NCBI GenBank assembly: GCA_963796105.1
Contig: CAWCKJ010000002.1
Span: 256,001 to 320,000 of the forward strand
Reading direction: 5' to 3'
DNA: 64,000 nt
Origin: a candidate division FCPU426 bacterium
GTDB lineage: Bacteria; Oederibacteriota; Muellerivitia; Muellerivitales; Muellerivitaceae
Shown in pieces: positions 24,001-27,000 of this stretch. Made by a program: the position numbers. Within the stretch, counting starts at the first letter, position 1, and the number at the start of each line of letters is the position of its first letter.

Positions 24001-27000
24001 TGGGATTATGGCATAGGTTTGTCGAGAAAATTTAGCTCCCCTAAGCCCGCTTGTTTTTCCGTTTTAAATGAATGAAATAAACGGTAATTTGATTAATCGT
24101 TAAAACGGCAACAAATAAATGAAATAAACGTGTATAATTACAAGTAGAGGTGGTTGTTTACGATTAAGATGGTTTTGAGATGTTGTTGAACCGAAAAGGA
24201 GGCAGTTTATGTTTCGTTTGAAAGCGAAGGGTTTCACGTTGATTGAACTGATGATCGTTGTCGCGATCATCGGAATTTTGGCGGCTATCGCCATCCCGCG
24301 TTTCGCGCAGATGCTGGAAAAATCTCGCGAAGGGTCCACGAAGGGAAATCTGGGAAGCCTGAAGTCTGCGGCGTCGATCTATTATGGCGATGCCCAGGGA
24401 GTTTGGCCCACGACTTTGCAGGCCTTCAGTAGTTATTCCTTCAGCAAGTATTTGGACAATATTTCGCCTGTGAAGGTGACGGGGTCCTTTGTGGTTGGAG
24501 CAACAAGCCCCGCTGGCGCCATCGTGTCGATGACAACGATGGTTTCAGTCCCAACGACGAATGGAACTGGCTGGTTGTACGACAGCACGATGGGAAATGT
24601 GTACGTCAACAGCACGGTTCAAGACTCAAAGCAGATCCCGTATTCGTTCTACGGGTTTGAGTGAGATGGTTTAGAAATTAAGGAAGTTAAAAAGGGCGGC
24701 GAATTTTCGCCGCCCTTTTTTTATGCCTGGTTATATTGGCACCCTTACGTTAGCCGAAAGGATTCCCGTTAAAATTCATGTGTCCTTTATGATATTTCAC
24801 CGGGCATGGGTGAAACCTAGGGCTTTATATATCGAGATAATTTTTAAGGACGCGGCTTCTCGAGGGATGCCTTAGTTTCTTTAAGGCTTTGGCCTCGATT
24901 TGGCGCACCCGCTCCCGCGTGACGTGGAATACATTTCCCACTTCCTCCAGGGTCCGGGGAGGGCCGTTGTCCAGCCCGAAGCGCTGTCTCAAAACCTCCG
25001 CTTCCCGGTCCTTGAGCGTTCCCAGGGCCTTGGTGATTTTTTCCTTGAGAAGGGCGAATGCCGCGGCGTTATCCGGGCTGATGGCGTCCTTATCCGCGAT
25101 GAAATCCCCCAGATGGCTGTCCTGCTCTTCTCCCACAGGTGTTTCCAGGGAAATCGGCGACTGGGCGACCTTGAGGCAGGAACGGATTTTTTCCACCGGC
25201 AATTCCAGGCGCTCGGCGATTTCGTCCACCGTGGGCTCGTGACCCAATTCCTGGACCAGGTCCCGGGAGGCCTTCACGGACTTGTTGATGATCTCGTTCA
25301 TATGCACCGGGACCCGGATGGTCCGGGCTTGGTCCGCGATGGCGCGGGTAATGGCCTGTCGGACCCACCAGGTGGCGTAGGTGGAGAATTTGTAGCCCCT
25401 GCGGTACTCGAATTTCTCGACTCCCCTCATCAGGCCGATGTTTCCCTCCTGGATGAGATCCAGGAAGGGCAGTCCGCGGTTGACGTATTTCTTGGCGATG
25501 GAAATGACCAGCCGGAGGTTGGCCTCCACCATCTCCATTCGGGCGCGGTAGGCCTCGCGCTCGCCCGTGCGGATTCCGTGCATCATGATCTTGACATGCT
25601 CCCGGCCGGCCATGGCTTTCTTCTCGAGGCGCTTGATATTGCGCCGCGCGTCGTCCCAGAACCTGCAGGCTTCGGTGAAATCCCGGCCCTTCAGGGCGCT
25701 TTTCTTCTCCAGCGTTTTGAGCTCGGCGGGATCGCCGTGCTTGACAGCGCCGGGAAGCTTGAGATAGTACTCGGGGGAGAGCTTCAACTTCCTGTCCTGC
25801 TGGTGCATGACGTGTTCCTGCTCTTCGATGGCCTCCCCGGGGCCGTGGAGGCAGCTCAAAAGGCGTTCCTTGACCTTCTTCTGGAACTGACAGTCCTTGA
25901 CCAGCCAGATAAGATCAATGAGGGTTTCGTCCAGCTTCGCCGCGAGATCTTTCCGCTTTCCGACTTCCATGTTTTTCCAACCCACCTTGTGCTGCATGGC
26001 CTTGATCTTCCGCTCCAGAATCTTGAGTTTGGAATAGTTTTTCTTGAGCTTGGCCAGGATCTTCTTCTCGGGGGGGCCCGCGGGAAGGTCCTCGTAGGGC
26101 TCCAAATTAATGGTCTCCTGGAGGGTTTTCCGCTTCTTGAGGATGTCCTCGAGGAGGGCGTGAAGTTCCACGAAACCCAGGGCCGATCCCAGGACTATTT
26201 TCTCATGTTTGAATTCGCCAGCCTCGATGCGCTTGGCAATGGCGATTTCCTGGTCGCGGGTTAGGAGTGAAATGCGCCCCATCTCCCGGAGGTACATTTT
26301 CACCGGGTCGGCCATCCTGGCCTCGACCCCCGGGGTGAGGGCGGCCTTATCGAACTCTTCGCCGTTTCCTTCCTCATCATCTCCTGCCGCGGCTCCGGAG
26401 GGCGCGACAACGGCCTTGCCATCCTCGCCGAGGCCTTCGTCCTTCTTGTCCCGGTCCACGATCTTGACGTCGTTATCTCCCAGCAAAAGGAGGATTTCAT
26501 CAATTTCAGCGGAGGAAACAGCCTCTTCCGGCAGGAAGTCGTTCACTTGCTTGTAGGTGATATAGCCTTTTTCCTTGCCGACCTTGAGGATGTTCTTGGC
26601 TCGGTCGATCTTGGACATGTCTGGCTTCATGGTTTCTCCGTCTGTGGGGATATCCGCTATTGAGGGGGGGCATCTTACTTGAATTGGCCGTCAAAAGCTT
26701 ATAATTCGTGAAGGATACCACGATTATTTTGAATATGTTGGACAATTACCGGCGGGGCTTTCTAGTCAAAACAATCGATAAATTATGGAAATAACGGTTT
26801 AAGCCACATTTATCGGAATTTATCCGGCTATTTAACCCAAGCTGGAGAGGATCAGTTCTCGGAACTGGCGTGGTTGAGCTTTTCAAGGGCGGATTCGTCC
26901 AATTCCAACCGAGTGGCGGCGATGAGGTCCTGCAGCTGTTCTAAACTGGTCGCGCTGGCGATGGGCGCCGTGACGCTGGGCCGGGACAAGAGCCAGGCTA

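What a model noticed while it worked through the whole genome (the two positions that open the first line are those of the whole stretch)
24209..24730. Major type IV pilin moved out of the pil operon into dispersed whole copies that evolve in concert
pilC and pilM are adjacent here, while relatives keep pilA between them. Instead five whole 151-aa pilin genes lie at four unrelated sites; three are 92-98% identical in DNA, and the best pair matches exactly from the ATG to the end of the terminator with different promoters. Copies are more alike within a genome than between sister species.
Evidence so far: g00309, g01542, g01543, g01096, g01179. pilC-pilA-pilM in G005, G010, G024. Within G000 92-98%, within G008 94-95%, between them 79-83%, also for the two copies that share the slot before g01541.
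(Added by a program. Inside this text positions count along the whole contig: contig position 256,001 is position 1 of the stretch shown here. "Call 12" and the like, gene names such as g00115 and contig names such as C1 are that model's own, and its searches are not shown. The text may have been shortened before it was handed on; [...] marks where a part breaks off. The agent that wrote the report below was given it as the finding of a first reader that could run no searches.)

Follow-up and report, generated by a model that had tools for sequence, protein, structure and literature searches.

The report
Scattered pilin copies kept alike family-wide
This uncultured bacterium and its relatives carry the gene for their likely main pilus subunit as several whole copies at old, scattered chromosome sites, and the copies within each genome are more alike than same-site copies between species, most likely because DNA is repeatedly copied from one to another, a known process not found in our searches for a dispersed pilin across a whole bacterial family.

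Summary
Confirmed and strengthened. G000 has five whole 151-aa type IV pilin genes at four sites, plus a 153-aa paralogue, and pilC sits next to pilM. The best pair is not an exact match (450/456 nt, six synonymous changes), but its similarity runs from the ATG to the terminator's end, with unrelated upstream DNA. The open question, conversion or fresh duplication, is largely settled. In 16 genomes of 10 genera, copies occupy sites shared between species, yet 30 of 30 quartets group by genome. A control paralogue groups by site in 61 of 72. The window copy and its twin differ by dS 0.04, against 1.75 for rpoB between sister species. 'Moved out' is too strong: most relatives have both the operon copy (20 of 23 loci) and dispersed copies, and the operon copy was lost twice. 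Copies are also gained and lost. One ancestral site carries a sigma-54 motif behind a two-component pair, so copies likely give one subunit several promoters plus dosage. This is tuf/psbA-type concerted evolution in a pilin, not Neisseria-type antigenic variation. The scan has noted similar pilin cases on other DNA.

The parts
24209..24664 (+). Pilin copy A: 151-aa type IV prepilin (8-aa leader MFRLKAKG, then F1, E5, G14, P22; no cysteines)
   Evidence: TIGR02532 over cut-off; PF07963; model
24197..24202 (+). Shine-Dalgarno AGGAGG; DNA upstream of the ATG is unrelated to that of the other copies
   Evidence: sequence
24694..24722 (+). Intrinsic terminator-like hairpin with A and T tracts on both sides, between pilin and the convergent rpoD gene
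   Evidence: found on both strands
24623..24725 (+). Block identical to copy B (CDS nt 415 to 61 nt past the stop); the 61-nt 3' part occurs nowhere else in the genome
20895..22655 (-). Two upstream genes that mark the site shared with G001 copy C63:13349
22833..23984 (+). TPR protein gene upstream of copy A, absent from the matching G001 site
24825..26630 (-). RpoD-family sigma factor gene convergent with copy A, absent from the matching G001 site
31603..32088 (-). Downstream marker gene (thioesterase-like, from its sequence) that lies about 270 bp after the pilin in G001, fixing the shared site on the other side

Best explanation
The gene at 24209 is one of several whole copies of the likely major type IVa pilin, which sit at old chromosomal sites shared between species and are most likely kept alike within each genome by repeated homologous copying (gene conversion) confined mostly to the coding sequence. 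Shown: the copy number, the shared sites, grouping by genome rather than by site, near-identity at synonymous positions, unrelated upstream DNA, and loss of the operon copy twice. Inferred: the copying is ordinary RecA-dependent ectopic recombination, either within the chromosome or with taken-up sibling DNA, and stops where homology stops. Also inferred: the copies are kept because they feed one pilus machine (single pilC, pilM, pilQ) from different promoters, giving dosage, separate regulatory inputs (one ancestral site has a sigma-54 motif behind a sensor kinase and NtrC-type regulator) and backup, which made the operon copy dispensable. Homogenisation would keep subunits compatible in one filament. 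Sites are also gained and lost, and copies that drift below roughly 75-80% escape (the F paralogue, E).
For: Quartets of two genomes by two shared sites: 30 of 30 group by genome for major-type sites in 16 genomes, the same with nucleotides, RY coding, codon positions 1+2 and amino acids. Control site F: 61 of 72 group by site (62 of 72 in the other codings), and 10 of the 11 exceptions involve G011. AU tests reject the by-site tree for G000/G001 (p 2e-6) and for operon x sigma-54 site (p 6e-54), and reject the by-genome tree for the control (p 4e-4). dS A-B 0.04, A-C 0.35, against 0.75 for A versus its same-site G001 copy and 1.75 for rpoB. Of 19 within-genome pairs above 87% identity, 10 share at most 1 nt of flank on either side, e.g. 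G003 98.8%, G024 97.2%, G023 97.2%, G044 95.8%. The DNA upstream of C matches that of G001's same-site copy while the coding sequence follows the genome. G001 copy C57 shares about 105 nt of 5' flank with one paralogue and 58 nt of 3' flank with another. In 18 of 20 genomes with two or more major-type copies, the best within-genome identity exceeds the best between-genome identity. A sigma-54 motif lies upstream of 6 of 90 copies, all at the two-component site (6 of 7; 1.5 expected). recA is present. Conversion limited by gene bounds is described for tuf (PMC5485169, abstract).
Against: Quartets share genomes and are not independent. I chose one copy per site per genome and left out three diverged copies at the transketolase site that form their own clade across genomes (G013 C24, G023 C31:196103, G041 C12:49936). 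G002 and G046 do not show within > between. Birth and death is real: sites D and E are empty in G001, and the G024 C5 site has no pilin in five relatives. Site A's orthology rests on neighbouring genes only, because its upstream DNA does not match G001's and about 7 kb are inserted downstream. No short conversion tract survives multiple testing (best p 0.011 uncorrected). Expression of each copy, the dosage role and 'major' status are not shown.
Confidence: 0.78

Rival explanations
1. Repeated recent duplication only (birth and death, no conversion): each lineage copies its pilin gene anew to fresh sites.
For: Empty D and E sites in G001; a G024-only site; tandem pairs and triplets in G000, G010, G016, G023, G041; A shares B's terminator although the G001 copy at site A has another one.
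Against: It would need independent insertion into the same neighbourhoods in many genera (seven share the two-component site). Recent duplicates should carry flanks, and most carry none. 30 of 30 quartets and the AU tests go against it.
Confidence: 0.07
2. A diversification system like Neisseria pilE/pilS: the extra copies are donors that vary one expressed pilin.
For: Variation concentrates in residues 61-70 and 91-110 of the mature protein. D is 90-93% identical to A and C at nt 325-385, where sister species are 66-73% alike.
Against: All copies are whole, with leader, start codon and ribosome-binding site. A and B encode the same protein. G4-like motifs lie near 5 of 90 copies, none in G000. 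The net effect is homogenisation. The D patch is not significant after correction.
Confidence: 0.07
3. Assembly artefact: near-identical paralogues or strains were merged in metagenome assemblies.
For: All genomes are uncultured bins. In G006 and G013 contigs break inside the pilin genes.
Against: A and B keep six differences. Contigs from separate RNA libraries of one study carry A-type (X1, X2, X5) or B-type (X3) letters at nt 408/414. The pattern recurs in 16 genomes, including G004 with about 5 contigs. Many within-genome pairs are 78-93% alike, too far apart to merge.
Confidence: 0.03
4. Purifying selection plus genome-wide codon bias makes old paralogues converge without DNA exchange.
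For: GC3 differs between G000 (0.64-0.74) and G001 (0.53-0.57) copies. D has low dN (0.03) but high dS (1.1) to A.
Against: dS 0.04 cannot come from bias when the background dS is 1.75. Grouping holds under RY and amino-acid coding. The F paralogue shares the same genomes yet groups by site.
Confidence: 0.02
5. RNA-templated copying: a reverse-transcribed pilin mRNA overwrites or seeds copies, giving ATG-to-terminator bounds.
For: A-B similarity ends at the terminator's T tract, and G001 C39/C57 share the same 3' extent.
Against: No reverse transcriptase (PF00078) in G000, 96.8% complete. The 5' untranslated region is not copied in G000. Most pairs stop at the stop codon. DNA conversion also stops at the bounds of homology.
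Confidence: 0.03

Closest known systems
Long-lasting recurrent concerted evolution of prokaryotic duplicates: tuf, psbA/psbD, amoCAB/hao, Alteromonadales flagellin (Wang and Chen 2018, PMC6053082)
   Same: Paralogues at syntenic sites group by genome in five or more species, synonymous sites are homogenised, and the product is an abundant polymer or complex subunit.
   Different: No pilin is among the 26 genes of that survey, and 'pilin' does not occur in its main text. Its flagellin case is tandem, so independent duplication was not excluded there. Here two to six copies are dispersed, sites turn over, and the operon copy can be lost.
Salmonella tufA/tufB gene conversion (PMC5485169, abstract only)
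   Same: [quoted passage not shown]
   Different: Two fixed copies of a housekeeping gene; here a surface protein with fast-changing loops, a variable copy number and escaped paralogues.
Neisseria pilE/pilS antigenic variation (PMC11813099, passages)
   Same: Recombination between pilin loci of one genome.
   Different: There, segments of up to 18 pilS copies replace stretches of one pilE and a G4 motif is needed. Here the copies are whole, there is no G4 in G000, and the outcome is sameness. That pilS copies are truncated and unexpressed is recalled, not read.
Streptococcus sanguinis PilE1/PilE2 (10.1101/459388, passages); Kingella denitrificans with four complete pilin genes (recalled, not found in the library)
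   Same: More than one whole major pilin gene; S. sanguinis shows that two similar major pilins co-assemble in one filament.
   Different: PilE1/PilE2 lie in the pil locus and are not functionally equivalent; no family-wide conversion between distant sites was seen in the passages read.
PilS-PilR/sigma-54 control of pilA (Pseudomonas, Myxococcus, Geobacter; recalled)
   Same: One ancestral site has sensor kinase, NtrC-type regulator, sigma-54 motif, often a small gene, then the pilin.
   Different: Only one of several copies is under it. The regulator passes no named family cut-off. G000's copies lack the motif.

Membership tests
Type IV pilin | Class III signal peptide: short hydrophilic leader ending in Gly, 21 hydrophobic residues, Glu5 (definition: PMC4471445 passages) | tested here: met
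   MFRLKAKG|FTLIELMIVVAIIGILAAIAIP; TIGR02532 36.5 bits (cut-off 16.3), PF07963 37.5 (cut-off 21.2)
Type IV pilin | Long N-terminal helix with a globular beta head | tested here: inconclusive
   Model pLDDT 92.2, helix 2-53 plus short strands. The top ten rows are all pilins or pseudopilins, best EpsG Z 6.6, rmsd 2.6, 86 aligned, which is under the tool's trust level of 8. Foldseek has no match at E <= 0.001.
Type IVa pilus system | PilB, PilT, PilC, PilMNO(PQ) and prepilin peptidase in the genome | tested here: met
   C10:87008-96371 gene run (PilM and PilC by family; the others named from sequence and order); one peptidase at C2:202956
Type IVa pilus system | This protein is the major filament subunit | tested here: inconclusive
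   It occupies the pilC-pilA-pilD-pilM position in relatives across the phylum; only one other, much longer, prepilin-motif gene was found by the motif scan; A/B-type contigs occur in RNA libraries. No protein evidence.
Recurrent concerted evolution (criteria of PMC6053082) | Paralogues group by species | tested here: met
Recurrent concerted evolution (criteria of PMC6053082) | Paralogues at syntenic sites shared across species | tested here: met
   Flank genes 47-90% identical between genomes and better than paralogues found in G000 where tested
Recurrent concerted evolution (criteria of PMC6053082) | Seen in at least five species | tested here: met
   16 genomes, 10 genera
Recurrent concerted evolution (criteria of PMC6053082) | Synonymous sites homogenised too | tested here: met
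   dS 0.04-0.38 within G000 A/B/C and 0.12-0.17 within G001, against rpoB 1.75
Neisseria-type pilin antigenic variation | Truncated silent donor cassettes (recalled) | tested here: not met
   All six G000 copies are whole; no partial copies found by tblastn or blastn
Neisseria-type pilin antigenic variation | G4 motif upstream of the expressed gene | tested here: not met
   5 of 90 copies, none in G000 or G001, no common site
Neisseria-type pilin antigenic variation | High-frequency mosaic alleles in the population | not testable with these tools
   Only assembled contigs, no raw reads, were available
PilSR/sigma-54-controlled pilA | -24/-12 motif upstream of the window's copy | tested here: not met
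   No motif upstream of any G000 copy; present at 6 of 7 copies of the two-component site in relatives (consensus recalled)

The most novel reading that the evidence does not exclude
The dispersed copies form a phylum-wide pilin 'network': new surface-loop variants arise in any expressed copy and are swept to the others by conversion under phage pressure, even into synonymously saturated copies such as D. The cell would change its whole pilus coat while keeping several independent promoters, which is Neisseria's system turned around (all copies whole and expressed, no silent cassettes).
Probability: 0.15. Interest if true: 0.72.

Novelty: new member of a known kind. Interest (0 to 1): 0.45.

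Why it matters
Long-lasting concerted evolution of protein genes is reported as rare (26 genes in 682 prokaryotes, PMC6053082), and no pilin is on that list. This adds a dispersed, multi-copy surface protein with a built-in negative control (the F paralogue) across a family of uncultured bacteria. Multi-copy sets also occur in other families of the phylum (92-96% within G029, G033, G034, G039; synteny not tested there). It shows how a core pil operon can lose pilA without losing the pilin, and that one subunit can be wired to several promoters. In practice, such copies break assemblies and mislead orthology calls.

Tried and rejected
Short conversion tracts: a permutation test of longest identical runs over 16 pairs in two site sets gave nothing that survives correction (best p 0.011). 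Codon adaptation as an expression proxy was uninformative, because it seems to follow regional base composition (pilins at percentiles 49-75, pil operon 92-98). A sigma-70 consensus scan found no site on the pilin strand. No pilA remnant in the pilC-pilM gap (score 29, shuffles 25-33). The A/B 3' block is not a mobile repeat. RNA-library contigs did not cover copy C's own sequence or most neighbouring genes; contigs show presence only, so this ranks nothing. One contig with a B-type letter at nt 327 and A-type letters at 408/414 (X2) may be an assembly chimera and was not used. The first fold, from a shallow alignment, failed (pLDDT 49). No named pilin family reached its cut-off, and no solved structure matched beyond the N-terminal part by sequence. 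Literature searches combining pilin with gene conversion, concerted evolution, duplication or dosage returned no paper on this pattern (1, 0, 0, 0 papers; also 31, 49, 51, 77, 96). The library lacks most subscription journals, and no supplements were read, so the supplements of PMC6053082 could bear on the claim that pilins are absent there.

Full report
Observation. The ORF at 24209-24664 (+) encodes a 151-aa prepilin with an 8-aa leader, F1, E5 and a hydrophobic tract. It is followed by a terminator-like hairpin found on both strands and a convergent RpoD-family gene. The genome G000 (4.98 Mb, 16 contigs, 96.8% complete) holds five whole 151-aa copies: A (window), B and C in tandem on C4, D and E on C3. 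It also holds a 153-aa paralogue F and one distant homologue. A-B share 450 of 456 nt, with six synonymous differences, and are identical from nt 415 to 61 nt past the stop. A-C share 92.5%, D about 82%, E about 75% and F about 65%. None of the 15 upstream pairs is more alike than shuffles. pilC and pilM are adjacent on C10 with a 203-nt gap and no pilin remnant.

The protein. With a diverse 86-row alignment, the model is confident (pLDDT 92.2): a helix over residues 2-53 and a small beta head. The ten best structural rows are all pilins or pseudopilins, but weak (EpsG Z 6.6; Foldseek none at E <= 0.001). There are no cysteines. Variation across 85 family copies peaks at mature residues 61-70 and 91-110, likely surface loops. 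The genome has one pilB-pilT-pilC-pilMNOPQ run, a second pilB and a solitary prepilin peptidase. Named records with 43-67% identical pilins are titled Candidatus Firestonebacteria, and the nearest Atlas clusters are mostly Elusimicrobiota. This places the organism loosely among uncultured lineages near those groups.

Operon state. All 31 family genomes have a homologue. Of 23 with an assembled pilM locus, 20 have pilA upstream of pilM (two cut by contig ends, one frameshifted), usually as pilC-pilA-pilD-pilM. G000, G001 and G022 lack it. The same operon order occurs in other families (G025, G031, G037), so it is ancestral. G022's congeners G011 and G042 keep the copy, so it was lost at least twice. 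Most genomes with the operon copy also have dispersed copies. The B/C site, upstream of a 741-aa gene, is shared with G001, G004 and G016. The gene therefore did not move out: dispersed copies were already there, and the operon copy was dropped.

Conversion versus duplication. I extracted 90 whole copies (85 from 29 family genomes, 5 from two outgroups), leaving out partial, frameshifted and fused forms. Sites were defined by flanking gene clusters: operon, two-component, 741-aa gene, SfsA-like, transketolase-like, two sites in genus g11, site A, and the site of F. For every two genomes holding copies at the same two sites I counted informative columns. All 30 quartets among major-type sites group by genome (16 genomes, 10 genera). 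Quartets with the F site group by site in 61 of 72, and ten of the eleven exceptions involve G011, whose F-site copy appears to have been overwritten once. RY coding, positions 1+2 and amino acids give 30 of 30 and 62 of 72. AU tests agree (p 2e-6, 6e-54; control 4e-4). For the window copy, G001 has a pilin between the same upstream and downstream genes. Yet A is at dS 0.04 from B and 0.35 from C, against 0.75 from that G001 copy and 1.75 for rpoB. Ten of 19 close within-genome pairs share at most one flank letter on either side. C's upstream DNA follows the site while its coding sequence follows the genome. One G001 copy takes its 5' flank from one paralogue and its 3' flank from another. Eighteen of 20 genomes with two or more major-type copies have a closer partner inside than outside the genome, 12 of them at 88% or more.

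Against and limits. The quartets are not independent. One copy per site was chosen, and three diverged copies at the transketolase site, which form their own cross-genome clade, were left out. G002 and G046 are exceptions. Sites D and E are empty in G001, and a G024 site has no pilin in five relatives, so birth and death runs alongside conversion. No short tract is significant after correction. Site A's orthology rests on gene neighbourhood. All genomes are bins. RNA-library contigs from one study carry A-type or B-type letters in 154-361-nt pieces with 1-4 differences; this supports both variants being real, but does not prove transcription.

How it likely works. Ordinary homologous recombination (recA is present; no reverse transcriptase found) would overwrite one copy with another up to the bounds of homology, as for Salmonella tuf (PMC5485169, abstract). 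Copies that drift too far escape. Retention is inferred to come from dosage, backup and separate regulation. Six of 90 copies have a sigma-54 motif, all at the site behind a sensor kinase and NtrC-type regulator (6 of 7; 1.5 expected). G000's copies have none, although rpoN is present. Keeping subunits alike would avoid interference in a shared filament, an idea raised for polymers in PMC6053082 (Discussion), and co-assembly of two major pilins is shown for S. sanguinis (10.1101/459388, passages).

Comparison and verdict. [quoted passage not shown] It fails the tested features of Neisseria pilE/pilS variation (PMC11813099, passages; truncation of pilS recalled). PMC4471445, PMC7031533 and PMC8809381 were seen as passages only. 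Ten library searches found no paper on dispersed pilins evolving in concert, within the library's limits. Earlier notes of this scan describe similar pilin cases in other genomes and the sigma-54 site; they are unchecked and not counted as support. Verdict: real and well supported, a new member of a known kind, interest 0.45.

Noticed in passing
window 24825-26630 and G000 C2:255149, C9:68670, C3:311479: G000 encodes four full-length RpoD-like sigma factors, 67-73% identical to the window's copy; old paralogues that are not homogenised.
   Followed up: no
G000 C2:202821-203660: The only prepilin peptidase stands alone and is just 37% identical to the operon pilD of G003; pilD is also missing from the operon in G002, G010, G011 and G042.
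   Followed up: partly
L111:8-2959 (G004) and the same site in G007, G010, G014, G016, G023, G043: Sensor kinase, NtrC-type regulator, sigma-54 motif, often a small gene, then a pilin copy.
   Followed up: partly
G000 C2:112809-113350, C3:732527-732765 and elsewhere: A dispersed repeat of about 77-85 nt with 72 blastn hits, partly in tandem arrays, also present in G001.
   Followed up: no
G000 C4:570439-587435: A cluster of large secreted-looking genes (2194, 1233, 714 aa) with a 386-aa prepilin-motif gene; likely the minor pilin/adhesin locus.
   Followed up: no
G001:C63:68745, G002:C2:1197306, G016:C30:31167, G024:C10:7980 and others: The pilin head domain also ends 250-610-aa fusion proteins in many relatives.
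   Followed up: no
G000 C4:1525648 and C3:167812, C4:530277, C4:531311: A second pilB (78% identical) and three further PilT-like ATPases outside the operon.
   Followed up: no
window 35775-36737: recA lies about 11 kb downstream of copy A.
   Followed up: no
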